Source: Actinomycetota bacterium (lineage in GTDB: Bacteria; Actinomycetota; UBA4738; HRBIN12). From it: a stretch of 64,000 bases of DNA. Under the pieces are notes generated by a model. The model made no database searches. It had not been told where the DNA came from and saw only the letters and a list, made by a program, of their open reading frames with translations. Below are positions 20,466-34,836 of the stretch, in pieces; the stretch's first letter is position 1, and each line of letters starts with the position of its first letter. The stretch spans positions 75,489-139,488 of the forward strand of contig JBBRWM010000001.1 of NCBI GenBank assembly GCA_038249195.1, given 5' to 3'. The translations under genes and the position numbers were made by a program.

Positions 20466-21251
20466 TCAACCTCCGAGAATGGGCGTTAGCACGCCGTCGA
20501 GGGCAGCTCGCGACGTCACCAGGTATCGGCCAAGGGCATTCATCTCGTCCTCGGGAACCGCCCACTCGGCTGGCACGCCAGACACGGTCCCCAGTATGGC
20601 CAGATCGTCGACAGCGGCGACGGCCTGTAGGGCCCCGGCTAGGTCCTCTGAAGTGATGACCGTGCTCAGCGGCTCGAACGCTACGGGCGTCATCGACCCA
20701 GCCTTCCCATCTACGTCGGGTCCCCAGCTGTGATCGAAGCAGTGACCGTGGTCGTACCCGAGGATGTCCACGGCACCTCCGGGTGTGCTCTTGGAGATGA
20801 GGTGCTCGGGCTTTCCGTCCGTGTTCCGGGTCCACGTGTACAGCACGACGAGCCGAGCGAGGTCGCCGCGATTGCGCGCCGAGCGGCACGTCTCGGCGCT
20901 GGGACTGAGGACGCCTTCGATCCAGATCCGCCCGAAGGCGGCGCCAGGGGAAGCGTTGGTCAGCTCGGGAACCTCCCTCTTGACCCAATCGACAATCTCA
21001 GGGGCGATGGCGACGACATCGCCGTCGGGGACGGGGGCGCCGAACAACCGGGCCAAGCGAGCCACGACGAGTTCGTTCACGAGGATCCGATCCTGCGAAC
21101 CAGAGCTGGACTGGGGGTTCCCCCGGAGCTTTACTGTGCGCCGCACGCCGTCGTCGAAGTCCATCAGGACGGCGGCCGACCCACCCCCTCCAGCTTTCTG
21201 CAGAAACGTCGTCGCCGCGGGCCGTGTGGCCTCACCGGTTTCAGCATCCAC
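20466..21251 (-). CDS. HipA-core (CtkA/HipC-like) Ser/Thr kinase domain protein, 261 aa
   Basis: LVVLYTWTRNTDGKPEHL...GYDHGHCFD resembles the HipA C-terminal catalytic and activation motifs. No HipA N-terminal domains. Starts 15 nt after the hsdR stop. Confidence 0.55.
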   Translation of the reverse strand: MDAETGEATRPAATTFLQKAGGGGSAAVLMDFDDGVRRTVKLRGNPQSSSGSQDRILVNELVVARLARLFGAPVPDGDVVAIAPEIVDWVKREVPELTNASPGAAFGRIWIEGVLSPSAETCRSARNRGDLARLVVLYTWTRNTDGKPEHLISKSTPGGAVDILGYDHGHCFDHSWGPDVDGKAGSMTPVAFEPLSTVITSEDLAGALQAVAAVDDLAILGTVSGVPAEWAVPEDEMNALGRYLVTSRAALDGVLTPILGG

Positions 21252-21266
21252 GTCCGCAGCCCACGA

Positions 21267-24263
21267 CTACTTGCCCTGGGTCCCACGCAGGCGGTCGTAG
21301 ACCTCTTTCAGGTAGAAGCCCTTGATGGTGGCGGCGAAGTCGGGGTTGTCCATGATCTGGCGGAAGATCTCGTCGTTCGCCCCCATGCGCTCGATGATCG
21401 TGGCGTCGAAGACCTTGTCGAAGCCGAACTTGAAGTTCTCGATCGGGTTCGCGGTCGCCTGGTCGTGCAGGTCGGGGTTGGCGATCCACTCCTCCCGGAA
21501 CTGGTCGAACAGGAGCTGGTCGGCGTCCCCGAGGTTCAAGCCGAACCGTTCGTTGAGCAGGTCCACGATCGTGGAGAGGTGCTCGGACTCGGGCTCGTGC
21601 TGCTTGCCCACTCCCCCGCCGGTGACTGCCGGTGGCAGCTCGCCGCCTTCCCCGAGACCCAGCGAGATGTCGCCTTCGAAGGTCTTTTCCGTCCGCAGGT
21701 GCGTGAGCTCGACGTCCGAGCCGAGGTCGAGGCCTCCCTCACCCCGCCGAGGCAGGCGTGAACGGAGCGCCTTCGTGTAGACGTAGGTCTTCTCCAGGCT
21801 CGGGTCGGTCACCTGCACAATCTGGCCGAGGAACGAGTAGAGGTTGACGAACCGCTTGAGGATGTCCCGGTACTCGCGCTCCGCTTCCTCGTCGACGATC
21901 TTGAAGCGGTCCACCGCAGGGTCCAGGAACGCGTAGAGCTTGCCGTGATCGAGCGACGAAGCGTCTGACGAGAAGAACACCTGCGCGAACGCCTCGATCT
22001 CGTCCTCGCGGAGCACGTCGTACTCCCAGAGCCGATCGCGCGCATCCCAAAGCGCGTTCGGGTCGGTCGGCTCGGTGATCGTCGTCTCGTAGAACGGCGT
22101 GAACGCCTTCTGGATCTCTTCGGCGTCGTTCCTAAAGTCCAGGACGAAGGTGTCGTCCTTCCCCGGCGCGATCCGGTTCAGCCGTGAGAGCGTCTGGACG
22201 GCCGCGACTCCTTCGAGCTTCTTGTCAACGAACATCGTGTGCAGCAGCGGCTGGTCATAGCCCGTCTGGAACTTCTCCGCGACGACCATCACCTGGTACT
22301 CATCGGTGTCGAACTCGTTTCGGGTTTGGGTGTCCGGGAAGGGGTTCATCCAGGACTCGGTGTAGTCGATGCCCTCGTCGATCACCTTGCCGGAGAACGC
22401 CACGAGGGTCTTGACGTCGGTGTAGCCCTTCTCTGCGATGTAGGCGTCCAAGGCGCGCTTGTAACGGACGGCGTGCAGCCGGGAGGCTGTCACGACCATC
22501 GCCTTCGCCCGACCGCCGATCTTCTTGGCGGTGTGGGCACGGAAGTGCTCGACGACGATCTCAGCCTTCTGGGCGAGGTTGTAGGGATGCAAGCTCACGT
22601 AGCGCGCCACGGCCGCGACCGCCTTGGCCGGATCGAACTCCGGGTCCTCGGTCACCGCCTTCTCCACCCGCCAGTAGGTGTCGTAGGTCACGTAGGTCTT
22701 CAGCACGTCGAGGATGAAGCCCTCCTCGATCGCCTGACGCATCGAATAGAGATGGAAAGGCTCGAGCTTGCCGTCAGCGTTCTTCCGGCCGAACAACTCC
22801 AGGGTCTTGGCCTTCGGTGTCGCGGTGAACGCGAAGAAACTCAGGTTCGGCTGGTGGCCCCGCGCCGCGATCTGGGCGGCGAGGCGATCCTCGGCGTCGG
22901 GGAGCACGCCGCCCGACTCGGCGGCCTCGGCCTCGCTGAGCTCATCGTCCTCGCGGCCGGCGCCGAGGACGGCCTTCAGGTCCTTGGCGGCCTCGCCGGT
23001 TTGGGAGGAGTGCGCCTCGTCGACGACGACGGCGTAGCGCCGGTCACCGAGCTCCCCAACGAGGTCCTGGACGAAAGGGAAGGTCTGGAGCGTGCACACG
23101 ACGATCAGCGCCTGATCGCTTTCGAGCGCGTGGGCGAGGTGCTCGGACTTGGTGCCCGACCCGCCGATCTTCTCGACCATCCCGTGCTTGTGCTCGAACT
23201 GATAGATCGTGTCCTGGAGCTGGTGGTCCAACACGATCCGGTCAGTTATCACGATCACCTTGTGAAAGACCTTCTCGTCGTCGGCGTCGTGCAGGGTCGC
23301 CAGGCGATGAGCTAGCCACGCGATCGTGTTGGACTTCCCCGAGCCGGCTGAATGCTCGACGAGGTAGCGGTGGCCGGGTCCTTCTGCGCGGGCGTCGGCT
23401 TCGAGCTTCAGCACGGCGTCCCACTGGTGGAAGCGGGGGAAGATGACCCGGCTCGCCTTCTTCTTCGCGACCGAGGATCCCTCAGGCGGCCGCTCCACAT
23501 GGATGAAGCGCGCGAGGATGTCCAGCCAAGGATCGCGCGCCCAGACCTGCTCCCACAGGTAGGCGGTGCGGTGGCCCGCCGGGTTGGGAGGGTTCCCGGG
23601 GCCCCCGTCACTCCCCCGGTTGAAGGGCAGGAACTGGGTCTTCGCGCCGGCAAGCTGGGTGGTCATATAGACCTCGTCGGGATCCACAGCGAAGTGGACG
23701 ACGGCGCGCTTGCCGAGCAGCGTGTCGCGCGGATCGCGATCCTCCCGGTACTGCTTCTTCGCGTGTTCCACGGTCTGGTTCGTGAGCGGGTTCTTCAGCT
23801 CAGCCGTCGCAACCGGCAGACCGTTGACGAGCAGGCAGAGGTCGAGCTCGTTCTCATGGGCGGGTGAGTAGCGGAGCTGACGGGTGACGGTGAGCCGGTT
23901 CGCCTCGAAGTTGGTGACGAGGTCTGGCGTGAGGCCGTGGGCAGGTTTGAAGTAGGCAAGGCGGATCGTCACGCCGTGGTCGGTCACTCCGTGTCGCAGG
24001 ACATCGATCGTCCCGTGTTGGTCGATCTGCTTCGCGACGCGGTCGGCGAACTTCTCGCGGGCGGCATCCTCGCCGCCATGGAGCTGGACGAGGCGCGCCC
24101 ACTCTTCCGACTGCGTGGCGGTCACGAAGTCGAACAGCTCTGCGAGGTCGAGAGCGAGGTTCTGCTCATAGTGAGCGTCGGCTCCCGATGTGTAGCCGCC
24201 ATCACCGGTGAGTGACAGCTCGATCGCGTCCTCGAAGGACACCTCTTTCGCGACTTCCGGCAT
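21267..24263 (-). CDS. hsdR: Type I restriction enzyme R subunit
   Basis: 998 aa. ResIII/helicase motifs (VEHSAGSGKSNTIAW, VVVDEAHSSQTGE) and the C-terminal HsdR domain. Confidence 0.9.
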   Translation of the reverse strand: MPEVAKEVSFEDAIELSLTGDGGYTSGADAHYEQNLALDLAELFDFVTATQSEEWARLVQLHGGEDAAREKFADRVAKQIDQHGTIDVLRHGVTDHGVTIRLAYFKPAHGLTPDLVTNFEANRLTVTRQLRYSPAHENELDLCLLVNGLPVATAELKNPLTNQTVEHAKKQYREDRDPRDTLLGKRAVVHFAVDPDEVYMTTQLAGAKTQFLPFNRGSDGGPGNPPNPAGHRTAYLWEQVWARDPWLDILARFIHVERPPEGSSVAKKKASRVIFPRFHQWDAVLKLEADARAEGPGHRYLVEHSAGSGKSNTIAWLAHRLATLHDADDEKVFHKVIVITDRIVLDHQLQDTIYQFEHKHGMVEKIGGSGTKSEHLAHALESDQALIVVCTLQTFPFVQDLVGELGDRRYAVVVDEAHSSQTGEAAKDLKAVLGAGREDDELSEAEAAESGGVLPDAEDRLAAQIAARGHQPNLSFFAFTATPKAKTLELFGRKNADGKLEPFHLYSMRQAIEEGFILDVLKTYVTYDTYWRVEKAVTEDPEFDPAKAVAAVARYVSLHPYNLAQKAEIVVEHFRAHTAKKIGGRAKAMVVTASRLHAVRYKRALDAYIAEKGYTDVKTLVAFSGKVIDEGIDYTESWMNPFPDTQTRNEFDTDEYQVMVVAEKFQTGYDQPLLHTMFVDKKLEGVAAVQTLSRLNRIAPGKDDTFVLDFRNDAEEIQKAFTPFYETTITEPTDPNALWDARDRLWEYDVLREDEIEAFAQVFFSSDASSLDHGKLYAFLDPAVDRFKIVDEEAEREYRDILKRFVNLYSFLGQIVQVTDPSLEKTYVYTKALRSRLPRRGEGGLDLGSDVELTHLRTEKTFEGDISLGLGEGGELPPAVTGGGVGKQHEPESEHLSTIVDLLNERFGLNLGDADQLLFDQFREEWIANPDLHDQATANPIENFKFGFDKVFDATIIERMGANDEIFRQIMDNPDFAATIKGFYLKEVYDRLRGTQGK

Positions 24264-25537
24264 CAGGCCACCGCTCCGGTCCTCGAGAAGTCCCCTGAAA
24301 CAGCGCGAGTGATAAGAGCCTGGCGGCGCTCCGCCAATAGCCGGATCTGGTCCTTCAGCTGCCCAACAAGCAAACGCATCCGATCCCGCTCCGCATCGAG
24401 AGTCGCTACGACTTCCTCTTGCTCTGGCGGCGATGGATAGGGGAATCGGTGCGCTCGCAACTGCTCACGTGTGAGATGAACGATCGTGCTTTGGTTGCCC
24501 TCGACAGCGAACACGTCGCGGCCAGCGGCGGCGCGGAGACAGTACATCAGGAAGCGCGTCGAACCCAGGTGGCGCGGTCGCACTCGATGAACAGCCTTCT
24601 GGAAGAAGCAGGGCTCTACCTCACCCTTCCAGATGGCGGCCCTCCCCACCTCGCCTCCCTCACAAACCAATAGGTCCCCGGGGCGGAGCTCGCATCGACG
24701 TCGATCGAGCGCGTCGAAGTGCATCGAGTCGAGTTGATCTAAATCGAGGCGATCCCACTGCACGTTGGTGTTCCTGAGATACGGATACTGTTCAACGCCG
24801 GCACTAGCCTCAGGATTCACCATCTTCCCAAGCGTCACGTCGAAGTTGGCGCTCACCCTTTGCACGCTCCAGGACGTCGGAATCTCGCCGAGCCAGTCGA
24901 GTCCGGAGTCCTTCCTGGGTCCCTTCACGAGACCGCCCGAAATCAGATGGAAGACAGATGCCTCGAAGCGCTCTTCAAGCAGGGCAGCCACGTGCTGCTT
25001 CTTGTCAGTAAGCGCGTCGATGAGTGCGGTCTCGGCATTGAGATAGTCGGCGATGGCCCGCTGCCCAGGAAGAGAATGAACGGGAACCTCAATCGCAGCG
25101 ACCGCGTCGGCCCGAAGCCCGAAGCGGGTGACTCCACTCGCGGCAACCTCCTCCTGCGATCGCACCAACGTCGAGGCCATGCACCAGTACAGGAACTTGG
25201 GGATAACTCGCGACGGATCCGGCCTGATCAATGACAGGTGGTAGCCGCAGAGGACGCGATCCATGGGCTCGTCGATGAACGCCGGGACGCCGATGTCGTC
25301 GGCGGTCTCAGAGTCCTTCGTGATCAAGATGTCCCCGGGTTCAACCTGGAACTGTCGAATCTGGTCCTGAGTGGCAGTTGCGTCCATGAACTCGAGCTCG
25401 GACGTGATGAGCGGGTTGTAGTAGACATCCGTGTAGTTGCATAGGTGGACCGCCTGCTCCCCCTCCACGCTCTTCTTGTCGACATTGCTCGGTTTGACGG
25501 TGGCGAGATACTTCAGCTTCCTCGTCGCGTAGGTCAC
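24263..25537 (-). CDS. hsdS: Type I restriction-modification specificity subunit
   Basis: 424 aa with two target-recognition-domain halves separated by conserved coiled-coil repeats (…LIDALTDKKQHVAALLEERFEA… / …LVGQLKDQIRLLAERRQALI…). Confidence 0.85.
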   Translation of the reverse strand: MTYATRKLKYLATVKPSNVDKKSVEGEQAVHLCNYTDVYYNPLITSELEFMDATATQDQIRQFQVEPGDILITKDSETADDIGVPAFIDEPMDRVLCGYHLSLIRPDPSRVIPKFLYWCMASTLVRSQEEVAASGVTRFGLRADAVAAIEVPVHSLPGQRAIADYLNAETALIDALTDKKQHVAALLEERFEASVFHLISGGLVKGPRKDSGLDWLGEIPTSWSVQRVSANFDVTLGKMVNPEASAGVEQYPYLRNTNVQWDRLDLDQLDSMHFDALDRRRCELRPGDLLVCEGGEVGRAAIWKGEVEPCFFQKAVHRVRPRHLGSTRFLMYCLRAAAGRDVFAVEGNQSTIVHLTREQLRAHRFPYPSPPEQEEVVATLDAERDRMRLLVGQLKDQIRLLAERRQALITRAVSGDFSRTGAVA

Positions 25538-27528
25538 TCCGTCACCTCGCGGAGCAACTCTTGGATCTCCGCTTCAAGCGCCTTGATCTCCGCGTCGATC
25601 TCTTCGAGCGGCCGCGGCGCAACGTACTTGTAGAAGTGCCGCGTGAGCGGGACCTCGTAACCGAGCTTCGTCTTCGAAAGGTCTACCCAGGCGTCCGGCA
25701 CGAACTGGAGCACCTCGGTGTTCATGTAGCTCTCGATCGCCGCTCGGTATGGCTCCGAAGCCAAGTGCTCCACGGGGTCCGTGTCCCAGTCGACCTCGAC
25801 GTCGGGGAGCGGGACATTCTCGCTGTCGCGGACATCTGGATCTGCTTCAGGCGCTCCCTTCTTGTTCGTTACCACCGGGGCGTCGTGGTCACGCACGCTG
25901 AGCACGTCCCATAGCGCCTTCTCGATCGGCTTCGGCATGGCGCCGAGCTTCTTCGCGACCACCGTCTTGTCGGTCTCGGCGATGCCTTCGAGCGAGGCGA
26001 TCCGTTCCAGGAGATCGGTCTGCTCCTGTTCGCTGAGTTTCGTCCACGCCTTCTCGGCCGTGAGGCGCTCGGCCGTATCCGCCGTGACCTCCCAACGGAG
26101 CCGAAGCGGCCGCTCCACCGTGATCCGCATGAAGCCGAAGGTGTGATTCGGCATGAGCTTCACACGCTCGCCCTCGGCGAGTTCGCCATAGAGGCGTGTG
26201 ATCTCGTCGATCTGCTTATCGGAGATGCGCTTGCGTTTCTCGCCCAGGCTCTTGGGCATCTTCTCCCAGTACTCGCGGGCATCGACCAGCTGGACTTTGC
26301 CGCGGCGTTCGGGCGCCTTGCGGTTCGTCACGATCCAGAAGTAGGTGGAGATGCCGGTGTTGTAGAAGAGCTGGTCAGGAAGGGCCACCACGGCCTCCAG
26401 CCAGTCGTTCTCGATGATCCAGCGCCTGATCTCCGACTCGCCCGAGCCGGCACCGCCGGTGAACAGCGGTGAGCCGTTGAAGACGATCGCGAGCCGGCTC
26501 CCGCCCTTCTCTGGCGGCTTCATCTTCGAGATCATGTGCTGGAGGAACAGGAACGAGCCGTCGTTGATCCGTGGGAGCCCGGCTCCGAACCGCCCCTTGA
26601 ACCCGAGGTCCTCGGCCTCGGCACGGACCTCGTCTTCGACCTTCTTCCACTCCACACCGAAGGGCGGGTTCGCGAGCATGTAGTCGAAGCGCCAGTCCTC
26701 GAGGCCGTCTTCGGTGAAGGAGTTCCCCCGCAAGATGTGGGAGGCGTCCTGGCCCTTCAGCATCATGTCGGAGCGGCAGATCGCGTAGGTCTCCGGGTTG
26801 AGCTCCTGGCCGAAGACCTCGAGACGAGCGGCGGGGTTCAGGGCACGCAGGTGCTCCTCGGCGAACGAGAGCATCCCCCCGGTCCCACAGGCAGGGTCGT
26901 AGAGCGTGCGGACCGCTCCGGCCTTGCGGAGCGCGTCGTCGTCCTCGATGAACAAGAGGTTCACCATGAGGTGGATAACCTCGCGCGGAGTGAAGTGCTC
27001 TCCGGCGGTCTCGTTGGACTGCTCCGAGAAGCGCCGGACGAGCTCCTCGTAGACGTAGCCCATCTCCGTGTTGTCCACCGCGTCGGGGTGCAGGTCGATC
27101 TCGAGGAACTTGCCGACCACCATGTACAGGAGGTTCGCCTTGTCCAGGCGCGCGATCTGGGTCTCGAACCCGAAGTTGTCGATGATGTCGCGGGCGTTCT
27201 GGCTGAACCCGGCGATGTAGCTCCGCAGGTTCGGCGCGATGTTCGCCGGGTCCCCGACGAGCTTGCGGAAGTCGAGTTTCGACGTGTTGAAGAACTGCTG
27301 CCCGGCCTCGTGCGCGAGCACCTTCTCGACCATCTCAGGCGCGCCCTTGGTGGTCGAGGCTTTCTTGAGGACCTTCTCCTTGGTTGGTTCCAGCACGCAG
27401 TCGAGCCGCCGGATCACAACGAGCGGCAGGATCACGCGCCCGTACTCGGACTGCTTGTAGTCACCCCGGAGCAGGTCAGCGACCGACCAGATGAAGTTGA
27501 CCTTCTCGGAGAAGTGGCTCGGTGTCAT
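25534..27528 (-). CDS. hsdM: Type I restriction-modification DNA methyltransferase subunit
   Basis: N6-adenine methylase motif NPPFGVEW. HsdM N-terminal domain. Confidence 0.9.
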   Translation of the reverse strand: MTPSHFSEKVNFIWSVADLLRGDYKQSEYGRVILPLVVIRRLDCVLEPTKEKVLKKASTTKGAPEMVEKVLAHEAGQQFFNTSKLDFRKLVGDPANIAPNLRSYIAGFSQNARDIIDNFGFETQIARLDKANLLYMVVGKFLEIDLHPDAVDNTEMGYVYEELVRRFSEQSNETAGEHFTPREVIHLMVNLLFIEDDDALRKAGAVRTLYDPACGTGGMLSFAEEHLRALNPAARLEVFGQELNPETYAICRSDMMLKGQDASHILRGNSFTEDGLEDWRFDYMLANPPFGVEWKKVEDEVRAEAEDLGFKGRFGAGLPRINDGSFLFLQHMISKMKPPEKGGSRLAIVFNGSPLFTGGAGSGESEIRRWIIENDWLEAVVALPDQLFYNTGISTYFWIVTNRKAPERRGKVQLVDAREYWEKMPKSLGEKRKRISDKQIDEITRLYGELAEGERVKLMPNHTFGFMRITVERPLRLRWEVTADTAERLTAEKAWTKLSEQEQTDLLERIASLEGIAETDKTVVAKKLGAMPKPIEKALWDVLSVRDHDAPVVTNKKGAPEADPDVRDSENVPLPDVEVDWDTDPVEHLASEPYRAAIESYMNTEVLQFVPDAWVDLSKTKLGYEVPLTRHFYKYVAPRPLEEIDAEIKALEAEIQELLREVTE

Positions 27529-27646
27529 GGGGGTTCAGGGCTCCGTGTTGTCGTCAAGGAACAATGGCCGGAGCTTATCCCAGCTCTGTCAGCCGGTCCG
27601 GCAGGGCCGTCGGCCGTCTGTCAGGGCTTCGGACTACGGTTCAGTG

Positions 27647-29386
27647 ATGAATAGCGGGAGCGCCGTGGATAAGGGAAGCCTAGCCCGGGTTCGATCCGCC
27701 CTCGCCGGCGCCTCGGCGCTTCACGAAACTTCAGCCGCCCTGCGCGCTAGCTGGACTGATCAGGAGCCGGACCCCGCCGAACCGTTCATCTGGGCGTTCG
27801 ACTACCACTACCTTGAATCCAGCCAGCGGCTCGCTCGCGGGGCTTCAGGGCCGTGGGGACCGATGCTCGAGATGGATGGCCGCATCTGGCCACCCCCGCT
27901 CCCGACTGTCGCCGACGAACACTTGGCCGCTTGGGCGGATGCGGCCGCTGCGCTGTCAGATCTTCCCCTCGGCGCAGCCAGGCTCCACGACCTGCTCTGG
28001 GAACGCCGCTGGGGCGAACGGCCGGACCTCCACGCTCGATCGGCAGTCGACGCCTACACCGCGCTGATCCCCGAGTCCGAATCGCTCGACTCGGCGCACC
28101 ACATCGCTCGCTCGATGGAACTGGCGATAGCGGTTGGCGACCGCGAGAGAGAACGCGAGGTAGTTGCGCTCAGCCTGGCGGCGGCTCGACGGTCGCTCGA
28201 AGCCTCGACCCCGGAACCCGGAGTCGCGCTGAGACATGCCGAAGCGCTTCTCACGCTCCCGCGCGAGCGGCAACCTGCCGAAGTCGACGAACTCCTGGAG
28301 GGCGCGGCCAGCATCTATGCCGACGATCCGTGGATCGTCGAGACGGTGTTGGACCTCAAGGTCGAACGATCGACGGATCCAGATGCCGTTCGCGCACTGC
28401 GATTGCAGCAGGTCAACACATGGCGAGCCGCTGCAAGCGAGGCGGCAGGCTTGGTGAAGCTCAGCCACCTCCAGCGTGCTCTCGAGCTGGCTCGATTGCA
28501 TAACCTCGGATTCCTGATTGACGAGGTCCGACTCGAGCTTCAGGCGATCTCTGAGGAAGACCTGGACCTTAAGGAACTTTCAGCCGAAGTCACCGTCCCG
28601 GCAGACGAGGTGGAGAGGTACATCGAGAGGCTCGTCGGGGGGAGCTGGCAGGAAGCGTTGACCGCCATCGGTGCGGTCGGCCCGCCAAGCGGCCAGGTCG
28701 AGAAGAACATCGCGGATATCGAGCAGCAGATGAAGGACTTTCCGCTCTCACACCTCTTCACGCGGACCCTGCTCGGACCCGACGGCATCCCGACCAAGAG
28801 CGCTATGAGTGAGGAGGAGCATAAGGCGGAGGCGTTGATCCGGCAGGAACTGTTCGGCATCCAGGTCGAGAGTCATTTCAGAGCTGAAGCCTTGGACCGT
28901 GCCAGGGAACGCTACGGGCAGCCGTCGGCGGAGGAGCTGGCCGAGTTCTTCACGACTCCGCTCATCACCGCCGAGATCGCCGAGCGCTTCGCTCGGTCGC
29001 TGGATCTGTACTGGAGCGGCCACTTCGATGAGGCCGCTCTGGTCGCCCTGCCGCGCATCGAAGCTGTCCTCCGCAATGTTGCCCGAGAAGGAGGCTTCGC
29101 GATCGTCCGAGAGCCCCAACCGACCAAACCCGGCGGTGTGAAGCCGCTCGGAGAGATCCTCCGTCTCCTGGAAGGCGGGTATCCGGAGTCGTGGCGAAGG
29201 TACTTGCTGAACGCGCTCGTGGAGCCGACAGGGTTCAATCTCAGGAACGTCCACCTTCACGGGGTGCGGGCTGCCGCCACCCGCGAAGAAGCGGCCATCT
29301 TGATACAGATCGCCTGCCATTTGCGACTCATCCGAAGCGGTCCGTCGGACGACGAGACGAGTCCACACCACCCTGCGCCGGCCTAG
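27647..29386 (+). CDS. Large hypothetical protein (579 aa), mostly alpha-helical, with a C-terminal 'RN..HG' motif (DUF4209-like?)
   Basis: GTG/ATG at 27644/27647. C-terminus ...YLLNALVEPTGFNLRNVHLHGVRAAATREEAAILIQIACHLRLI. Divergent from hsdM across a 118-bp gap. The ORF's 5' extension of 52 aa is rejected. Confidence 0.5.
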   Translation: MNSGSAVDKGSLARVRSALAGASALHETSAALRASWTDQEPDPAEPFIWAFDYHYLESSQRLARGASGPWGPMLEMDGRIWPPPLPTVADEHLAAWADAAAALSDLPLGAARLHDLLWERRWGERPDLHARSAVDAYTALIPESESLDSAHHIARSMELAIAVGDREREREVVALSLAAARRSLEASTPEPGVALRHAEALLTLPRERQPAEVDELLEGAASIYADDPWIVETVLDLKVERSTDPDAVRALRLQQVNTWRAAASEAAGLVKLSHLQRALELARLHNLGFLIDEVRLELQAISEEDLDLKELSAEVTVPADEVERYIERLVGGSWQEALTAIGAVGPPSGQVEKNIADIEQQMKDFPLSHLFTRTLLGPDGIPTKSAMSEEEHKAEALIRQELFGIQVESHFRAEALDRARERYGQPSAEELAEFFTTPLITAEIAERFARSLDLYWSGHFDEAALVALPRIEAVLRNVAREGGFAIVREPQPTKPGGVKPLGEILRLLEGGYPESWRRYLLNALVEPTGFNLRNVHLHGVRAAATREEAAILIQIACHLRLIRSGPSDDETSPHHPAPA

Positions 29387-29423
29387 GCCTAGCCCAGACG
29401 GGAATCGGCGGTGTATACGTCTC

Positions 29424-29960
29424 GTGATGAGAGCGGACGCGACGGCGCGCGGGAAGGAGTGCCTTGCGCTTCTCGAGCAGGCCGGCCGCGATGCGGGTTG
29501 GACCGTGGTGCGGGAGTACCCGGTACCCGGCGGGAGAGTCGACCTTGTCTGGACCTGGCAGCCCGATTCGGCACTGGCCGGTGCCCCCGGACCGATCCCG
29601 ATCGTGGGCTTCGAGGTCGAGTCCAGTTGGCGCACCCGGCAGCACGTCAAGGGCGACCTCGTCAACCTGGCGGCCCTCCAGGCTGCGCTTGGAGTGATCG
29701 TCTTGCTTGGCCTCGATGAGGGCGACGGCTTGCTCCCGCACGCCGAGGAGCTGGTCGAGCGGTGGCCCTGGCGGATAGTCGTGTGGACCGAACGCGACGT
29801 CGAAGGACTCGTGAACGGCCTCGGCAACCAACCATTGAGTTTCGCGGCTGGCTGCGCAAGCGCGGGACCATCGACCGAGGACGATCCTGCTTCGACGACG
29901 ACGAGCCACGCGGGGGGTGGCGTGACGCCCACACACGGTCGTGTCCCGTCAAGTGGTTGA
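29424..29960 (+). CDS. Hypothetical protein with a possible PD-(D/E)xK-like core, 3' end abutting or interrupted by the IS256 insertion
   Basis: GRVDLVW...IVGFEVESSWRTRQHVKGD. The C-terminal 50 aa are low-complexity. The IS target duplication lies inside this tail. Confidence 0.35.
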   Translation: MMRADATARGKECLALLEQAGRDAGWTVVREYPVPGGRVDLVWTWQPDSALAGAPGPIPIVGFEVESSWRTRQHVKGDLVNLAALQAALGVIVLLGLDEGDGLLPHAEELVERWPWRIVVWTERDVEGLVNGLGNQPLSFAAGCASAGPSTEDDPASTTTSHAGGGVTPTHGRVPSSG

Positions 29961-31322
29961 GATTCGTCACCGCCATCCTCGCTTCCTAGGCGATCGCAGC
30001 GAGTAGTTCCTTGGGGTCCTCACCTCCCTCGAGCTCGGCGGCCTTGGCCATGGATCCGATCGAGAAGTAGCGGCGATCGGCCACCTGCCATTCGTCGTCT
30101 TGTTCAGCGAGCAGCGTCCCGACCATGCGCATCAACGAGTCGAGCGTCGGGAAGATCCCGATCACTCGGGTGCGCCGCTTGACCTCCTTGTGCAGCCGCT
30201 CGATCGGGTTGGTCGAGTGCAGCCGACGCCGGTGTTCCCGGGGGAAGTGCATGTGGGCCAGCACGTCTTCTGCGGCGTCTTCCAGCAGCTCCGCGGCCTG
30301 GGGGAACCTGGGCTCGAGCATCCGTGCGACCTCGTGCAGCTGGGTCATCGCCGAGGCGTGATCGGGGGCCACGAACACGGTGCGCACCACCGCGGCCACG
30401 GTGTCTTGAGCACCCTTGGGCACCGTGGACAGCAGGTTCCGCATGAAGTGAACCCGGCATCGCTGCCAGGTGGCCCCGGTGAGCACCTTCGCGATCGCCT
30501 GGCGCAGTCCCTCGTGCGCATCAGAAATCACCAGACGCACCCCTTTCAGCCCTCGCTTGATCAACGAGCGAAGGAACGACGTCCAGAACTGATGGTCCTC
30601 GCTCTGGCCGGTGGCCGCACCCAAGATCGTGCGTTGGCCTTCGGCGTTCACCCCGATCGCGACGACCGTGGCGACCGAGGTGACGCGGCCGGCCTGACGC
30701 ACCTTGTGGAAGGTGGCGTCCAACCACACGTAGGGGTGCTCGCCTTCGATCGGGCGCGTGAGGAAGTCCTTCACCTCGCCATCTAATGACTTGCAGATCC
30801 TGGAGACCTCCGAGCGTGAGATCCCATCGATCCCCAGGGCTTTGACGAGGTCATCGACCTTGCGGGTGCTCACGCCCTTGACGTAGGCCTCGACCACCAC
30901 CGCATGCATCGCCTTCTCGGCTCGCCGGCGGGGTTCGAGCAGGCTCGGGAAATAGGCCCCGGCACTCACCTTGGGGATCTTGAGCTCGATCGTGCCCGCC
31001 CGGGTGTCCCAGCGCCTGGTGCGGTAGCCGTTGCGGTAGGCGACCCGCTCGGAGCTGCGTTCATACGGCCCAGCACCGATCTGGGAGGAGACCTCGGTCT
31101 CCATCACGGCTTGGGCGAGCACCCGCACGCCTTCACGAAGCAGATCCACGTCGTCTTCCTCGAGAAGCTTGCCGACGAACGACGTGATGTCCATCCTGTT
31201 GGTGGCCATCGTCCCTCCCCATCTGACTGTCCTGTCGATGAGGATGGCGGTGGCCATCTATGTCACGGGGATTTCCACCCCGGATCTCCACTTCGAAAGT
31301 CCACCACTTCTCGGGACGCTAA
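29937..31322. mobile_element. IS256-family insertion sequence with imperfect terminal IRs and a 9-bp target-site duplication CCCACACAC
   Basis: Left IR ggtcgtGTCCCGTCAAGTGGTTGAGATTCG. The right end reverse-complements to GTCCCGAGAAGTGGTGGACTTTCG. TSD at 29928-29936 and 31323-31331. Confidence 0.8.
29986..31209 (-). CDS. tnp: IS256-family (mutator-type) transposase
   Basis: ATG at 31209 (MATNRMDITSFVGKLLEED...). DDE region ...VWLDATFHKVRQ...LVISDAHEGL. Confidence 0.9.
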   Translation of the reverse strand: MATNRMDITSFVGKLLEEDDVDLLREGVRVLAQAVMETEVSSQIGAGPYERSSERVAYRNGYRTRRWDTRAGTIELKIPKVSAGAYFPSLLEPRRRAEKAMHAVVVEAYVKGVSTRKVDDLVKALGIDGISRSEVSRICKSLDGEVKDFLTRPIEGEHPYVWLDATFHKVRQAGRVTSVATVVAIGVNAEGQRTILGAATGQSEDHQFWTSFLRSLIKRGLKGVRLVISDAHEGLRQAIAKVLTGATWQRCRVHFMRNLLSTVPKGAQDTVAAVVRTVFVAPDHASAMTQLHEVARMLEPRFPQAAELLEDAAEDVLAHMHFPREHRRRLHSTNPIERLHKEVKRRTRVIGIFPTLDSLMRMVGTLLAEQDDEWQVADRRYFSIGSMAKAAELEGGEDPKELLAAIA

Positions 31323-31603
31323 CCCACACACTTCGGCAAGTACCGGGCTCTATACGACTGGCTGACGGCCAATCAGCGGATCGCGTGCCAGCGACCTTCG
31401 GCCAGGTGGAGGAGATTCTGGGGTTCCCTCTCCCACGATCCTCAAGAGACCACCCGGCGCACTGGTCTGGGTACGAGGGCAGCGCAGTCGCGAGAGCGAT
31501 CGCTGACGCAGGCTGGCGAGCCAGGAACGTGAACCTGGCCGCCGAGACCCTCGTCTTCGAGCGCGTGACCTGAGGTGGATCGCCTCAGACGCGGCCCTGC
31601 TGA

Positions 31604-32449
31604 CTAGCTGTTTCCAAGAAGATCGTCGCGGACATCGCGCACGAAGGACGTGCACACGGCTTCCACTCGATCCGCTGGAACCCCGACGCGCAGAGCCTCC
31701 ACCGCCATCTGTATGCCACGGCTCGCCCGGGCTCCGAAGAGTTCGTCGAGGAACGCCAAGGCTGCTGCGGTCGGCGCCTCGGCTATGGGGTCGGCGAGCA
31801 GCGGCCGTAGCCTCTGGAGGAAGTCCTCGACCGGCACCGCCTGCATGATGCGGTAGACGTCCGCGGCGTCCTTGTCAGCGATCCGGTCATCCTTACCCGC
31901 ATGCAGGCGCTCGTGCAGCTTGTGGAGCTTCGCCACCACAAGGGCGGCCGGTCCGGCGACCCGGACCGAGAAGCTTCGAGTCTCCGTAGCTTCGAGCCCG
32001 GAGATCTCCATGACATCGACGTCGATGACCACTCCTTCAAGGCCCAGGGCCTTGCGCGCCGACATCTTGTCGTGGGGCTCGATCCGCGCGCCTCTGGTTC
32101 CGCCGGGAGGGGCGAGGCCCTCTGGCACCATGACGTCGACCGGGATGATCACGCTCCGCCCACCGACCCCGACGCTCTTGATCCAGGCCCCTGGCTGTTG
32201 TCCCTCTTGCGAGAACCCTCCTGCGCGCATCAGCTCCTCGAGGTGAGGCTGATCGGCCAGATCGGCAGGCGAGAGAGCGAGGTCCGCGTCGGTCGTGTAC
32301 GGGGCAACCGAGATATCGCCGTCCCCGGTCCTGAGGTAGACCGCCTGAGCGCCGACTACGACCACCGCGTCCCTCTGCGACCCGAGAGCCTCGAGCGCAT
32401 CCAGCAATACCGAGCGTGCGGCGACGTACAGCGGGTCGTAGTCAGTCAC
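31604..32449 (-). CDS. Nucleotidyltransferase-fold protein, AbiEii-like (putative type IV TA toxin / Abi)
   Basis: GTG at 32449, 3 nt after the upstream stop. N-terminal NTase motif VVVGAQAVYLRTGD...TTDADLAL (hG[GS]...DxD). Confidence 0.5.
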   Translation of the reverse strand: MTDYDPLYVAARSVLLDALEALGSQRDAVVVVGAQAVYLRTGDGDISVAPYTTDADLALSPADLADQPHLEELMRAGGFSQEGQQPGAWIKSVGVGGRSVIIPVDVMVPEGLAPPGGTRGARIEPHDKMSARKALGLEGVVIDVDVMEISGLEATETRSFSVRVAGPAALVVAKLHKLHERLHAGKDDRIADKDAADVYRIMQAVPVEDFLQRLRPLLADPIAEAPTAAALAFLDELFGARASRGIQMAVEALRVGVPADRVEAVCTSFVRDVRDDLLGNS

Positions 32450-32452
32450 CCG

Positions 32453-33568
32453 TCACTCGCGTTCGACCGCTGCGGCCATGGCCTCGATCGAGGCGTAGCG
32501 CCATGTGTTCTCGTTCTCGCGCATCCACTCGATCACGGCGTCGCCTTCGGCGGGCATCCGTCCGCTGCCGGCTAGGCAATCCATCGCCACCTGGCTGGGC
32601 GCGGCCCACACCAGGCCGCCGTCGCGGACCGCGCGCGCGAACACGACCTCGTTGTCGGGACGCACCAGGACGACGTCCGCGCCGGTCTCGGCGGGGAGGA
32701 GCTCGAGCTCTTGGGCGAGGTCGCGCGGCGACATCGTGTACATGACGAGCAGGGTCGGCGCGGCCACCGGCGAAAGACGAGCGGCGGCGAACGATCCGGT
32801 GATCGTCGGCGCTCCCTCCGGCCCGCGCATCGCCAGTTGCTCCACGAGTCCACGCGCGCCCTGGCGGGCGACGTAGCGGAAGCTCCCGGTCGGACGGAAG
32901 AGGTCGAGCACCTGTGCTCGGCGCCGGAGCACGGCGGGCCAGTCGACTCCGGTGACTGGGCCTGGGCTCTCCCTCTCGATCAGTCCCTCGTCGTCAAGGG
33001 TCTCCAGGATGCGGGAGACGTATCCCTCGTTGACGTTCGCTGCCTTCGCGATCTCGGCCCCGGTGTACGGCGGGGTTGCGTCGACCAGCACCCGAACGAC
33101 CGCACCGACCTTCGCGCCTCGCAACCCTCGTCGCGACTTCGTCGCCGAGGGGTCGCGCTGGGCGCCTTGGGTCTCGATGAAGACGCCGACCTGATCCAGG
33201 CTGATGCGGATGTTCCCCGTCAGGTCCACGTAGCTGACGCTCTCTTCCACCAGCAGCTCACGGACCTTCGGGCTTACATAGGGCGCGACGACCAGGATCG
33301 GGTAGTTCCCCATCTGCTTACGGAGGCGCCTCCACGGTCCACCCATGAGCACCTGCACATCGCGCACCGAGACGTCGGAGCGAGCTACGACGGCGACCGG
33401 TGTCTGAGATGACGGCTGCGGTCCCTTGATGATCAGGTCCTGGGGCTCGGGATCACCCCCGAGAGAGATCTTCTCGATGGCCCAGTTCGTGGGCAGGCGG
33501 CGGGTGAGCACATCGATCGCCGCGTCCAGGAGCTGGTTTTCCGTCCGTTCCAGTTGTTGGGCTTCCAT
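32453..33568 (-). CDS. Winged-HTH DNA-binding protein, AbiEi-like putative antitoxin/regulator
   Basis: AAGGAGG RBS, then ATG at 33568 (MEAQQLERTENQ...). Central MarR-like wHTH TGAEIAKAANVNEGYVSRILETLDDEGLIERE. Confidence 0.5.
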   Translation of the reverse strand: MEAQQLERTENQLLDAAIDVLTRRLPTNWAIEKISLGGDPEPQDLIIKGPQPSSQTPVAVVARSDVSVRDVQVLMGGPWRRLRKQMGNYPILVVAPYVSPKVRELLVEESVSYVDLTGNIRISLDQVGVFIETQGAQRDPSATKSRRGLRGAKVGAVVRVLVDATPPYTGAEIAKAANVNEGYVSRILETLDDEGLIERESPGPVTGVDWPAVLRRRAQVLDLFRPTGSFRYVARQGARGLVEQLAMRGPEGAPTITGSFAAARLSPVAAPTLLVMYTMSPRDLAQELELLPAETGADVVLVRPDNEVVFARAVRDGGLVWAAPSQVAMDCLAGSGRMPAEGDAVIEWMRENENTWRYASIEAMAAAVERE

Positions 33569-33576
33569 CTTGCCTC

Positions 33577-33598
33577 CTTGCCTCACCTTGGCAAGGGT
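33577..33598. promoter_or_regulatory. Inverted repeat TTGCC-N12-GGCAA overlapping the RBS of the wHTH gene, with further GGCAAGG direct repeats to 33682
   Basis: cttgcctccttgcctcaccttggcaagg and ggcaaggcttgtccagtctagacaaggcttgcc (contains GTCTAGAC). Confidence 0.35.
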
Positions 33599-33823
33599 AC
33601 ATGTATCGGGCAAGGCTTGTCCAGTCTAGACAAGGCTTGCCTGTCTCACGTGCGCGTGTCAGGGTCAGGCAATCTGGCAAGGTATCGGGTTCGCGCCTCG
33701 TTTCACTCTTTCGCCCGTTTCACCGCGGCGGTGAATATGGCCGATCCAGTGAAACGTGGCGCCTCCTGGTCGCGGGCTACCCTTGCGGGCGTTGGGGCGT
33801 CACCTGGGAGGTGGGACAGACCG

Positions 33824-34645
33824 ATGGCTGGGGTAGGGAGCACCGTGGGGCAGCTCTTCGTGATCGCCCGCAACCCTGAGCCGGACTCCAAGCTCCCTTA
33901 CCTGCTCAGCCTCCCGCTCGAGGGCCCCCTGATCCTCAAGGCACGCGACACCTGGCCGCGGGCCACGCGGATCTACTGCCACCCCTTCGAGGACGTGTGG
34001 CCCGCCGACGCCGACGTCATCGAGGAGACGCCGGTCACCTCGTGCCGGCGGCGGGGCGCGGTGATCGATCTGGTGCTCGACCGGCCGCGGAACACGCGGT
34101 CCCAGTTCGTGTTCACAGAGACCCGCGGACGACCCGCGATCTTCTGGCAGACGCAGAAGGCCGCCCGCGCGGCGAACCCCGGCGCTCGGATCCCGCGCCG
34201 CCGGGCCCTGACCGAGACCTTCACGATCTCGATCGACACGAGGGAGCGCTACCCCTACCGCTTCTCCGGCAGGAACGTCTTGGTCGAGCGCGCGACGCTG
34301 CAGGCCGGGGACTACGCGATCCTCGCCGACGGCGAGATCCTCGCGACGGTCGAGCGGAAGACCTTGGAGAACTTCGCGTCCTCGCTCTCGGACGGCACCA
34401 TCGCGTTCCAGATGCAGCGCCTCGGCGAGGCGCCGCGCGCCGCCGTGGTGGTGGAGGCCCGCTACTCCGCCCTGTTCAAGCTCGATCACGTTCCCGCGGG
34501 CTGGATCGCCGACGTGCTCGCCCGCCTGCAGGTCCGCTACCCGGAGATCCAGGTGGTCTTCGCCGACTCCCGGAAGTTCGCGGAAGAGTGGGCCTTCCGG
34601 TTCCTGGCTGCGGCGCTCGCCGAGGCCACCGACCGGGCGCCATAG
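33824..34645 (+). CDS. ERCC4 (XPF/Mus81-type) nuclease-domain protein, paralog 1
   Basis: ISIDTRE...GDYAIL...VERKTLENF matches the ERCC4 signature (V/IDxRE ... GDY ... ERKxxxD). Confidence 0.6.
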   Translation: MAGVGSTVGQLFVIARNPEPDSKLPYLLSLPLEGPLILKARDTWPRATRIYCHPFEDVWPADADVIEETPVTSCRRRGAVIDLVLDRPRNTRSQFVFTETRGRPAIFWQTQKAARAANPGARIPRRRALTETFTISIDTRERYPYRFSGRNVLVERATLQAGDYAILADGEILATVERKTLENFASSLSDGTIAFQMQRLGEAPRAAVVVEARYSALFKLDHVPAGWIADVLARLQVRYPEIQVVFADSRKFAEEWAFRFLAAALAEATDRAP

Positions 34646-34788
34646 CCATGAATGGGTCCCACATGGGTCCCACACGCGGACGCGAACCGGCGCGAAACGG
34701 CGCCACCCGACGCCAACCCTCAACCGCTCGTTTCCCCTGCTCAGCGGCCATTCAACTCCATCACCGCTGGTAGGCGAACCGCCCTCCG

Positions 34789-34836
34789 ATCACCCTCTCA
34801 AGGTGAAGACACGGGTTCAAATCCCGTTGGGACTAC
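34789..34836. repeat. attR: second copy of the tRNA-Glu 3' 48-mer
   Basis: Identical to 15710-15757. Confidence 0.85.

What the first reader, a model, noticed from the sequence alone, without database searches (positions are those of the whole stretch)
27529..29960. Large uncharacterised protein divergent from hsdM, followed by a small nuclease-like ORF
A 579-aa, largely helical protein with no recognisable catalytic motif apart from a C-terminal ...FNLRNVHLHG... block sits head-to-head with hsdM across 118 bp. I recall the 'RN..HG' motif from DUF4209, but that is a tentative recollection.

It is followed after 37 nt by a 178-aa ORF with a D...E.K arrangement (RVDLVW / FEVES / HVKGD). Position and composition make this a candidate two-gene defense module.
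Basis: inference. Interest (0 to 1): 0.7.

Follow-up and report, generated by a model that had tools for sequence, protein, structure and literature searches.

The report
HEPN RNase candidate beside broken nuclease gene
The large gene is an intact member of an already catalogued but untested family of predicted RNA-cutting anti-phage proteins, and the small "nuclease" next to it is an unrelated restriction-enzyme-like gene broken by a jumping element, so the two do not form a two-gene system.

Summary
The sequence features are real, but the two-gene interpretation is not supported.

**Small gene.** The 178-aa ORF is the 5' fragment of a roughly 250-aa gene encoding a restriction-endonuclease-fold domain plus DUF7662. 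A 1386-bp IS256-family element (29937-31322, 9-bp target duplication) splits it. The 3' part (31332-31573) also carries a frameshift.

**Linkage.** No small-family gene lies beside any other locus encoding a homolog of the large protein. No homolog of the large protein lies at any of five distinct small-family loci.

**Context.** Both genes sit in a 19-kb island integrated at tRNA-Glu, together with a type I restriction-modification system and PDC-M66-like genes.

**Most likely function.** I infer that the large protein is a stand-alone abortive-infection RNase. The family is already known, so this is an ordinary new member of modest interest.

The parts
27529..27646 (.). 118-bp divergent intergenic region between the hsdM start and the start of the large gene
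   Evidence: Sequence read. No sigma-70-like promoter or meaningful terminator was found; that scan is not informative for a high-GC organism.
27647..29386 (+). Intact 579-aa gene encoding a DUF7380 + helical-repeat + DUF4209 (HEPN) protein, a member of PADLOC candidate PDC-S39
   Evidence: ORF. Pfam DUF4209 at E 0.0032. PADLOC PDC-S39 at E 3e-16. 30 homologs at 34-53% identity. Pfam and PADLOC scans of the alignment members. AlphaFold2 mean pLDDT 89.6.
27848..28171 (+). Approximate DUF7380 region (about residues 68-175), including the invariant R112-L-H-D115-L-L-W118 block
   Evidence: 21 of 24 aligned members match Pfam DUF7380 at E <= 0.01. Positions were transferred from homologs P0002 and P0014. 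The window protein itself has no DUF7380 hit at E <= 0.01.
28964..29326 (+). Approximate C-terminal HEPN (DUF4209) domain, about residues 440-560, with invariant E472 and R476
29243..29260 (+). HEPN Rx4H motif, R533-N-V-H-L-H538, the predicted RNase active site
   Evidence: Invariant N531, R533, N534 and H538 in 24 homologs. An Rx4H motif is kept in 132 of 135 full-length cluster representatives, 129 of them as RN.
29424..29936 (+). 5' fragment (171 codons) of a disrupted gene: restriction-endonuclease-fold domain plus linker. The apparent 178-aa ORF runs on to 29960 inside the IS element
29937..31322 (-). 1386-bp IS256/Mutator-family insertion sequence. Transposase ORF at 29986-31257 (-). Imperfect terminal inverted repeats. 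9-bp target-site duplication CCCACACAC at 29928-29936 and 31323-31331
   Evidence: Pfam Transposase_mut at E 1.7e-127. Inverted repeat I1. Ends and duplication read from sequence. Single copy in the window.
31332..31573 (+). 3' fragment of the disrupted gene (DUF7662 domain), with a further frameshift at about 31368-31373. Stop codon at 31571-31573
   Evidence: tblastn hits in two different frames. Translations of the rejoined gene. 40 of 42 family members match Pfam DUF7662.
21267..27528 (-). Context: type I restriction-modification operon. hsdR 21267-24263, hsdS 24263-25537, hsdM 25534-27528
   Evidence: Pfam and PADLOC REase_I and MTase_I models.
15710..34836 (.). Context: integrated genomic island of about 19.1 kb, bounded by identical 48-bp direct repeats (attL 15710-15757, the 3' end of tRNA-Glu, and attR 34789-34836). 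Integrase at 16170-17663 (-)
   Evidence: tRNA prediction. Repeat search, with 0 matches expected by chance. Alignment of the repeats. Integrase Pfam hit. GC content 66.0% inside versus 69.6% in the flanks.

Best explanation
The finding contains two unrelated cargo genes of a 19-kb integrative defence island at tRNA-Glu.

**Gene 1 (27647-29386).** This is an intact, stand-alone member of the bacterial C6orf70/ERMARD-like HEPN family (DUF7380 + TPR-like helical repeats + C-terminal DUF4209). PADLOC lists this family as the single-gene candidate PDC-S39.

Proposed mechanism, inferred by analogy with other HEPN proteins:
- The C-terminal HEPN domain is a metal-independent endoribonuclease that uses the invariant R533/N534/H538 motif.
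- As in other HEPN enzymes, it probably forms a composite active site by dimerising.
- The N-terminal DUF7380 and helical-repeat part probably holds it inactive and acts as the sensor of infection.
- Once triggered, it would cleave cellular or phage RNA and abort the infection.
- It would act alongside the adjacent type I restriction-modification (RM) system, but need not depend on it.

**Gene 2 (29424-29936 plus 31332-31573).** This is the remnant of a separate gene of about 250 aa encoding a restriction-endonuclease-fold nuclease with a C-terminal DUF7662 domain. An IS256-family insertion and a frameshift have inactivated it. It is not a partner of gene 1.

**What is shown:** family membership, motif conservation, predicted fold, gene disruption, island boundaries and lack of co-occurrence.
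**What is inferred:** RNase activity, autoinhibition and sensing, and the anti-phage role.
For: **Family membership**
- Pfam DUF4209 is hit by the window protein (sub-threshold) and by 23 of 24 aligned members. DUF7380 is hit by 21 of 24.
- PADLOC PDC-S39 is hit by 24 of 24 members, best E 4.8e-32.
- DUF4209 is described as the C6orf70 HEPN family, fused to TPR, in bacteria more than eukaryotes, and occurring in R-M related operons (PMC3710099).

**Active site**
- N531, R533, N534, H538, E472 and R476 are invariant.
- 132 of 135 full-length 50%-identity cluster representatives keep an Rx4H motif.

**Fold**

**Family size**
- A profile search found 6404 cluster representatives at E <= 1e-3. The 150 best-scoring hits are mostly full length.

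**Defence and mobile-element context of homologs**
- Type I RM within 10 kb in L002, L023 and L032, as well as in the window.
- CBASS E2 and SAVED genes plus an integrase.
- TIR, PIN and NYN genes.
- HepT/MNT and PIN genes.
- TrwC relaxase and an MTES_1575 helicase.

**Independence of the two genes**
- No small-family gene occurs beside any other large-protein homolog, and no large-protein homolog occurs at any small-family locus.

**Pseudogene status of gene 2**
-, with the IS anatomy.

**Island**
-.
Against: - No member of this family has been tested. The PDC systems are explicitly 145 untested candidates (bioRxiv 10.1101/2024.01.29.577857).
- The window protein falls below the Pfam gathering score for DUF4209 and gives no DUF7380 hit at E <= 0.01.
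- Foldseek found no solved structure at E <= 1e-3, and a sequence profile found none either.
- Neither family was found on viral contigs, and no trigger is known.
- The type I RM association, 4 of about 15 well-flanked loci, was not tested against a formal background.
- The frameshift in the 3' fragment could be an assembly error. The only second assembly (L001) is identical over the whole stretch and may derive from the same reads.
Confidence: 0.6

Rival explanations
1. RM-coupled guard, as with PrrC. The HEPN protein would be functionally tied to the adjacent type I restriction-modification (RM) enzyme. It would stay latent while HsdMSR is intact, and would be released as an RNase when a phage anti-restriction protein disables the RM complex.
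For: - The gene starts 118 bp from hsdM, transcribed divergently.
- Type I RM genes lie within 10 kb in 3 of about 14 other well-flanked homolog loci (L002, L023, L032).
- The hsdR in L032 is 52.6% identical to the window's hsdR.
- The C6orf70 HEPN family is noted as occurring in R-M related operons (PMC3710099).
- PDC candidates were discovered embedded in BREX, DISARM or type I RM systems.
Against: - Most homolog loci with good flanks have no type I RM within 10 kb.
- Where RM is present, distance and orientation vary: divergent at 118 bp; 2.6 kb away with an integrase in between; 3.2 kb away with Fic and another gene in between; 7-9 kb away on the opposite strand.
- Codon usage of the large gene (GC3 0.75) differs from hsdM and hsdR (0.89), which suggests separate acquisition.
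Confidence: 0.15
2. The 579-aa protein and the downstream nuclease-like protein would form one two-gene defence operon, for example a sensor/RNase plus a DNase effector.
For: - The two genes are on the same strand, 37 nt apart, with no predicted terminator between them.
- Both families occur in defence-island contexts.
- The small family has a restriction-endonuclease fold.
Against: - They co-occur nowhere else. About 33 loci with large-protein homologs have no small-family gene, and 5 distinct small-family loci have no large-protein homolog.
- PADLOC models the large family as a single-gene system.
- The small gene is interrupted by an IS element and frameshifted, while the large gene keeps every invariant residue.
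Confidence: 0.05
3. Not an immune gene. The HEPN protein would be a selfish toxin or addiction module of the integrative element, or an RNA-binding or RNA-processing regulator with no anti-phage effect.
For: - It lies in a mobile island with an integrase and att repeats.
- Some homologs sit directly beside integrases or transposases.
- Two homologs carry an N-terminal winged-helix DNA-binding domain (P0023 and L032).
- Some HEPN domains are non-catalytic RNA binders (PMC3710099).
- No defence phenotype has been published for this family.
Against: - The catalytic Rx4H motif is almost universally retained, which argues for an active nuclease.
- No conserved adjacent antitoxin-like small gene is seen across the loci.
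- The neighbours are mainly defence genes rather than element-maintenance genes.
Confidence: 0.15

Closest known systems
PADLOC phage defence candidate PDC-S39 (single-gene candidate; Payne et al., bioRxiv 10.1101/2024.01.29.577857)
   Same: The window protein and all 24 aligned homologs match both PDC-S39 models across most of their length (residues 68-540 of the window protein). The gene stands alone, is about 570 aa, and lies next to a type I RM system, which is the context used to nominate PDC candidates.
   Different: The match is distant: E 3e-16 for the window protein and 4.8e-32 at best among the homologs. This is therefore a divergent branch, apparently actinobacterial. Here the gene is divergent from hsdM rather than embedded within the RM operon. 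PDC-S39 itself is untested, so membership gives no demonstrated function.
C6orf70/ERMARD-type HEPN family, Pfam DUF4209 (Anantharaman et al. 2013, PMC3710099)
   Same: It has the C-terminal DUF4209 domain with the R-N-x3-H signature. It is fused to TPR-like helical repeats. It is bacterial and associated with RM loci, all as that paper describes.
   Different: The window sequence is below Pfam's gathering score (18 versus 22.3 bits). The N-terminal DUF7380 module is not discussed in that paper. No comparison with eukaryotic ERMARD could be made here because the AlphaFold database library was unavailable.
PrrC and RloC anticodon nucleases (HEPN RNases linked to type I RM)
   Same: Each is a HEPN-type RNase domain at the C-terminus of a larger regulatory protein, encoded next to hsd genes. 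Each serves as a plausible second line of defence behind restriction (PMC3710099).
   Different: This protein has no ABC-ATPase N-terminal domain and is not embedded between hsd genes. In most loci there is no RM system nearby. No sequence similarity to PrrC or RloC models was detected in PADLOC.
HEC-08 (DUF3644 HEPN + zinc-ribbon single-gene defence; Payne et al. 2024)
   Same: It is a single-gene HEPN protein found by association with other defence systems. Its defence activity was abolished by mutating the histidine of the Rx4-6H motif. It shows how a stand-alone HEPN defence protein can behave.
   Different: It belongs to a different HEPN family (DUF3644, with the HEPN domain at the N-terminus) and has different accessory domains. 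No homology to it was detected here.
PD-(D/E)xK restriction-endonuclease-fold proteins (AF1548, NgoMIV, R.BspD6I, NucS): applies to the small gene only
   Different: There is no literal (D/E)xK motif: the sequence is E-V-E, with the lysine on the following helix. No Pfam model covers this domain (0 of 42 members match one) and no PADLOC model matches. The C-terminal DUF7662 domain is uncharacterised. The window copy is a pseudogene.

Membership tests
Pfam DUF4209 (C6orf70/ERMARD HEPN family) | Match to the PF13910 profile at or above the gathering score of 22.3 bits | tested here: inconclusive
   The window protein scores 18 bits, E 0.0032, over residues 515-548, which is below the cut-off. 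Full-length homologs pass: P0002 29.9, P0006 30.1, P0014 26.6, P0023 31.7 bits. 23 of 24 aligned members match at E <= 0.01. The window protein is homologous to these over 98% of its length (E 6e-168).
HEPN superfamily | Conserved Rx4-6H motif | tested here: met
   R533-N-V-H-L-H538. R533, N534 and H538 are invariant in 24 sequences. The motif is kept in 132 of 135 full-length representatives.
HEPN superfamily | All-alpha helical-bundle HEPN fold | tested here: met
HEPN superfamily | Endoribonuclease activity that depends on the Rx4H residues | not testable with these tools
   This needs biochemistry. Nothing has been published for this family.
PADLOC PDC-S39 | Near-full-length match to the PDC-S39 HMMs | tested here: met
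   PDLC05012 at E 3.3e-16 (residues 68-483, profile positions 74-516 of 615). PDLC05011 at E 5.5e-14 (residues 88-540, profile positions 86-556 of 595). 24 of 24 homologs match. PADLOC's own coverage and E-value rules were not applied.
PADLOC PDC-S39 | Functions as a single gene with no obligatory partner | tested here: met
   Neighbouring genes differ at every homolog locus examined, and no conserved adjacent gene is seen.
PADLOC PDC-S39 | Anti-phage activity | not testable with these tools
   The PDC systems are described as 145 untested candidates.
Pfam DUF7380 | Match to the PF24098 profile | tested here: inconclusive
   The window protein gives no hit at E <= 0.01. 21 of 24 aligned homologs do, and the invariant R112/D115/L116/L117 block lies in the aligned region.
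PrrC-like RM-embedded anticodon nuclease | Gene embedded between hsd genes on the same strand, with an ABC-ATPase N-terminal domain | tested here: not met
   The gene is divergent from hsdM and outside the operon. No ATPase domain or PrrC model was matched.
PD-(D/E)xK restriction-endonuclease fold (small gene) | alpha-beta-beta-beta-alpha-beta core with conserved acidic residues and a lysine | tested here: met
Restriction-endonuclease fold + DUF7662 family (small gene) | Intact reading frame through the C-terminal DUF7662 domain | tested here: not met
   An IS element is inserted after codon 171, and a frameshift lies at about 31368-31373.
IS256 / Mutator-family insertion sequence | Transposase_mut transposase, terminal inverted repeats and an 8-9-bp target duplication | tested here: met
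   PF00872 at E 1.7e-127. Inverted repeats at both ends. 9-bp direct duplication CCCACACAC flanking a 1386-bp element. The expected duplication length for IS256 is from general knowledge.

The most novel reading that the evidence does not exclude
The DUF7380-DUF4209 protein could be an actinobacterial guard of type I restriction. Its N-terminal DUF7380 and helical-repeat module would monitor the integrity of the neighbouring HsdMSR complex, or bind phage anti-restriction proteins directly. It would then unleash the HEPN RNase. This would be a PrrC-like logic built from entirely different parts, in a family that also gave rise to eukaryotic ERMARD.
Probability: 0.12. Interest if true: 0.6.

Novelty: new member of a known kind. 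Interest (0 to 1): 0.3.

Why it matters
The family is large: a profile search found 6404 cluster representatives. It has a eukaryotic branch, ERMARD/C6orf70. It keeps an almost universally conserved HEPN active site, yet no member has a demonstrated function.

This intact copy sits beside a type I RM system in a cleanly bounded mobile island. That makes it a reasonable construct for the first functional test of PDC-S39.

For annotation, the practical value is corrective:
- The "178-aa nuclease" should be recorded as an IS-disrupted pseudogene.
- The pair should not be propagated as a two-gene system.
- The full-length small family (a restriction-endonuclease fold not covered by Pfam, plus DUF7662) recurs near RM and TIR genes. 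It is absent from PADLOC, so it is a possible candidate in its own right, though not in this genome.

Tried and rejected
- NCBIfam found nothing for either protein.
- Sequence-profile searches of the PDB gave only chance-level hits for both families.
- Foldseek of the large-protein model against the PDB gave no hit at E <= 1e-3, only generic helical solenoids.
- The AlphaFold database (afdb50) fold library was unavailable, so no structural comparison with ERMARD was made.
- hhalign of the family profile against a single PF05168 HEPN protein from L045 gave no signal. This is uninformative because one side was a single sequence.
- The genome scan failed with the 24-sequence alignment because no stretch was conserved enough. 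Repeating it with 9 sequences returned only 7 loci.
- Viral contig scans found no relative of either family.
- The promoter and terminator scan of 27300-31800 found nothing above chance.
- Cluster look-up returned no names or organism, so the host remains unidentified. High GC content and homologs in Actinomycetes MAGs, Frankia and Streptomyces plasmids suggest an actinobacterium.
- Literature searches for DUF7380, DUF7662 and ERMARD + HEPN returned nothing.
- I considered the longer 631-aa start at 27491 and rejected it. It overlaps hsdM, and homolog alignments begin near residue 5-10 of the 579-aa form.
- I considered the 192-aa gene downstream of the closest homolog (L009) as a possible divergent partner and rejected it. 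It looks like a hydrolase/cyclase fragment and has no significant similarity to the small family.
Full report
**1. What is in the sequence**

The window is high-GC, about 70%. A lower-GC stretch runs from roughly 19 to 40 kb.

The type I restriction-modification (RM) operon lies on the minus strand (Pfam, PADLOC):
- hsdR, 21267-24263
- hsdS, 24263-25537
- hsdM, 25534-27528

A plus-strand ORF begins at ATG 27647, which is 118 bp from the hsdM start. It ends at 29386 and encodes 579 aa. A longer 631-aa reading from 27491 would overlap hsdM. Homologs do not support it, because their alignments begin near residue 5-10 of the 579-aa form.

After 37 nt, a GTG at 29424 opens a 178-aa ORF that ends at 29960. 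A Mutator/IS256-family transposase gene follows directly on the minus strand at 29986-31257.

**2. The large protein**

*Family assignment*
- Pfam gives a sub-threshold DUF4209 hit (18 bits, E 0.0032, residues 515-548).
- PADLOC gives two near-full-length matches to the candidate system PDC-S39 (E 3.3e-16 and 5.5e-14).
- NCBIfam gives nothing.
- A word-indexed search of 5.8 billion proteins found 30 homologs at 34-53% identity, almost all 560-580 aa.
- Scanned individually, 23 of 24 aligned members match DUF4209, 21 of 24 match DUF7380, and 24 of 24 match PDC-S39.
- A profile search over 1.84 billion cluster representatives found 6404 relatives at E <= 1e-3 and 1488 at E <= 1e-30. The 150 best-scoring hits are mostly full length.
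- This is therefore a large family with a fixed architecture, and the window protein belongs to a divergent branch of it.

*HEPN identity*
- DUF4209 was assigned to the HEPN superfamily by Anantharaman et al. 2013 as the C6orf70 family. That paper predicts it to be catalytically active, notes fusion to TPR repeats, finds it more in bacteria than eukaryotes, and says it occurs in R-M related operons (PMC3710099).
- In the 24-sequence alignment, N531, R533, N534 and H538 are invariant, as are E472 and R476 in the preceding long helix. These form the R-N-x3-H version of the HEPN Rx4-6H motif.
- Among 135 full-length 50%-identity representatives, 132 keep an Rx4H motif in the last 130 residues. 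In 129 of them it reads RN.

*Predicted structure*
- The AlphaFold2 model is confident (mean pLDDT 89.6) and almost entirely helical.
- Foldseek found nothing at E <= 1e-3, and no solved structure is detectable by sequence. The family has no experimental structure.
- The N-terminal region has its own invariant block, R112-L-H-D115-L-L-W118, which lies within DUF7380. Its role is unknown.

*Status as a defence candidate*
- PDC systems were nominated because members were found embedded in BREX, DISARM or type I RM loci. The authors describe them as 145 untested candidates (bioRxiv 10.1101/2024.01.29.577857).
- PDC-S39 appears in the literature I could search only as a PADLOC output in genome surveys.
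- The same preprint shows that a different single-gene HEPN protein, HEC-08, defends in a way that depends on the histidine of its Rx4-6H motif. That supports the plausibility of the mechanism, not membership.

**3. The small ORF**

*It is a fragment*
- Its homologs (70 found) are typically 235-260 aa. They consist of a conserved N-terminal domain of about 135 aa, a variable linker, and a C-terminal DUF7662 domain.
- The window ORF matches only the N-terminal domain and the linker.
- tblastn with full-length homologs finds the missing DUF7662 part at about 31322-31567, on the far side of the transposase gene.

*The insertion*
- The element spans 29937-31322 (1386 bp).
- It has imperfect terminal inverted repeats.
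- It is flanked by a 9-bp direct duplication, CCCACACAC, at 29928-29936 and 31323-31331.
- Removing the IS plus one copy of the duplication takes out 1395 nt, which is 3 x 465. This rejoins the gene in frame as ...T-P-T-H|F-G-K-Y-R-A-L-Y-D-W-L..., matching the family's H-x-G-K-Y-x-x-L-W-x-W-L block.

*A second lesion*
- A frameshift at about 31368-31373 moves the rest of DUF7662 into another frame. That frame ends at the stop codon 31571-31573.
- The independent Logan contig L001 is identical over the whole stretch, but it may come from the same reads.
- Codons 172-178 of the 178-aa ORF and its stop codon lie within the IS.
- The gene is therefore a pseudogene.

*What the intact gene would encode*
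- An AlphaFold2 model of the full-length homolog P0036 (pLDDT 89.7) shows an alpha-beta-beta-beta-alpha-beta core.
- The conserved residues are E31, D40, E64, E66 and K76 in window numbering (E43, D52, E76, E78 and K88 in P0036).
- No Pfam model covers this domain: 0 of 42 members match one. No PADLOC model matches it either.

**4. Are the two genes a module?**

*Loci sampled*
- I collected loci for large-protein homologs from species-representative genomes (7 loci), metagenomes (19 loci) and exact-protein look-ups.
- tblastn with the window fragment and two full-length small-family proteins found no small-family gene at any of these roughly 33 loci. About 14 of them have at least 5 kb of flank on both sides.
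- The closest homolog (P0002, 48% identity) is followed after 20 nt by an unrelated 192-aa hydrolase/cyclase-like fragment.
- Conversely, five distinct small-family loci contain no large-protein homolog.

*What neighbours each family instead*

| Family | Locus | Neighbouring genes |
|---|---|---|
| Large protein | L002, L023, L032 | Type I RM within 10 kb |
| Large protein | L021 | CBASS E2 and SAVED genes, integrase |
| Large protein | L013 | TIR, PIN and NYN genes |
| Large protein | L022 | HepT/MNT and PIN |
| Large protein | L011 | TrwC relaxase, MTES_1575 helicase |
| Small protein | L015 | Integrase |
| Small protein | L016 | TIR protein |
| Small protein | L018 | Large helicase, type IV secretion genes |
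| Small protein | L043 | Type III-like RM locus |
| Small protein | L045 | Type I RM, then a likely MNT/HEPN pair |

Both are therefore independent cargo genes of defence islands or mobile elements. They happen to be adjacent here.

*How tight is the RM link?*
- Type I RM lies within 10 kb in 4 of about 15 well-flanked loci, counting the window. This looks far above what a random gene would show, but I did not compute a formal background.
- Distance and orientation vary: divergent at 118 bp in the window; 2.6 kb away with an integrase in between in L023; 3.2 kb away with Fic and another gene in between in L032; 7-9 kb away on the opposite strand in L002.
- This pattern fits defence-island co-localisation better than operon-level coupling.

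**5. Wider context**

- A tRNA-Glu gene lies at 15684-15757. It is followed by a tyrosine integrase at 16170-17663 on the minus strand.
- The last 48 bp of the tRNA region (15710-15757) recur exactly at 34789-34836. A degenerate third copy lies at about 36138-36185.
- These repeats bound an island of about 19.1 kb with 66.0% GC, against 69.6% in the flanks.
- Island contents, in order:
  - an HTH regulator
  - a DUF3037 + HipA-like pair, which matches PADLOC PDC-M66B and PDC-M66A
  - hsdRSM
  - the HEPN gene
  - the broken nuclease gene with its IS
  - two unannotated genes, one with a weak winged-helix match
  - an ERCC4-domain nuclease

**6. Mechanism and verdict**

*Best-supported reading (confidence about 0.6)*
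- The 579-aa protein is a stand-alone HEPN endoribonuclease of the PDC-S39 / DUF4209 family.
- Its N-terminal DUF7380 and helical-repeat part senses infection and restrains the RNase.
- On activation it cleaves RNA and aborts the infection, adding a second layer beside the type I RM system.

*Shown versus inferred*
- Shown: family membership, active-site conservation, predicted fold and genomic context.
- Inferred: RNase activity, regulation and the anti-phage role.

*Rivals*
- A PrrC-like guard of the RM system (about 0.15).
- A non-defence toxin or regulator of the island (about 0.15).
- The original two-gene module (about 0.05).

*Novelty and interest*
- The family, its HEPN nature, its RM association and its candidate-defence status are all already on record.
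- This is a new, divergent member of a known kind, and interest is modest.
- The useful corrections are that the "small nuclease" is an IS-split, frameshifted pseudogene of an unrelated family, and that there is no two-gene system here.

Noticed in passing
window 15684-15757, 34789-34836, 36138-36185: The 3' 48 bp of tRNA-Glu (15710-15757) recur exactly at 34789-34836 and in degenerate form at about 36138-36185. Together with the integrase at 16170-17663 (-), this bounds a 19.1-kb integrative island. A remnant of about 1.35 kb follows it, probably left by an earlier insertion at the same site.
   Followed up: partly
window 19611-20453 (-) and 20466-21251 (-): A DUF3037 protein and a HipA_2-like kinase lie adjacent, just downstream of hsdR. 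They match PADLOC candidate PDC-M66B (E 1.2e-8) and PDC-M66A (E 5.4e-4). This would be a second untested defence candidate in the same island.
   Followed up: no
window 33554-34645 (+): An ERCC4-domain nuclease (Pfam E 9.8e-14) is the last gene of the island before attR. It has no PADLOC match.
   Followed up: no
window 31604-32449 (-) and 32453-33613 (-): Two island genes have good coding signal. The first has no Pfam or PADLOC hit. The second has only weak MarR/IclR-type winged-helix matches at about residues 170-217.
   Followed up: no
loci L015-L020, L043-L045 (proteins P0036, P0055, P0057, P0075, P0083): The intact small family (a restriction-endonuclease-fold domain with no Pfam model, plus DUF7662) is absent from PADLOC. 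It recurs beside an integrase, a CAP12/TIR protein, a type III-like RM locus and a type I RM locus. It may be an unlisted defence or mobile-element nuclease family.
   Followed up: partly
P0023 (locus L013, 10001-11881) and L032 9710-11602: Some large-protein homologs carry an extra N-terminal winged-helix DNA-binding domain of about 50-100 aa in front of DUF7380. This suggests a DNA-associated or self-regulating variant.
   Followed up: no
L032 2905-6498: This type I HsdR is 52.6% identical to the window's HsdR. It has a C-terminal Schlafen/AlbA_2 domain and sits in an operon with PRiA4_ORF3, an AAA_14/DUF4143 ATPase and a Fic protein, upstream of a large-protein homolog.
   Followed up: no
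window 36237-39218 (-): A copper-type P1B ATPase with cupredoxin, HMA and YHS domains lies immediately outside the island remnant.
   Followed up: no
window 27647-29386 versus 21267-27528: Third-position GC is 0.75 for the HEPN gene and 0.74 for hsdS, against 0.89 for hsdM and hsdR. This hints that the island is a mosaic, and that hsdS (or its target-recognition domains) and the HEPN gene were acquired separately.
   Followed up: no
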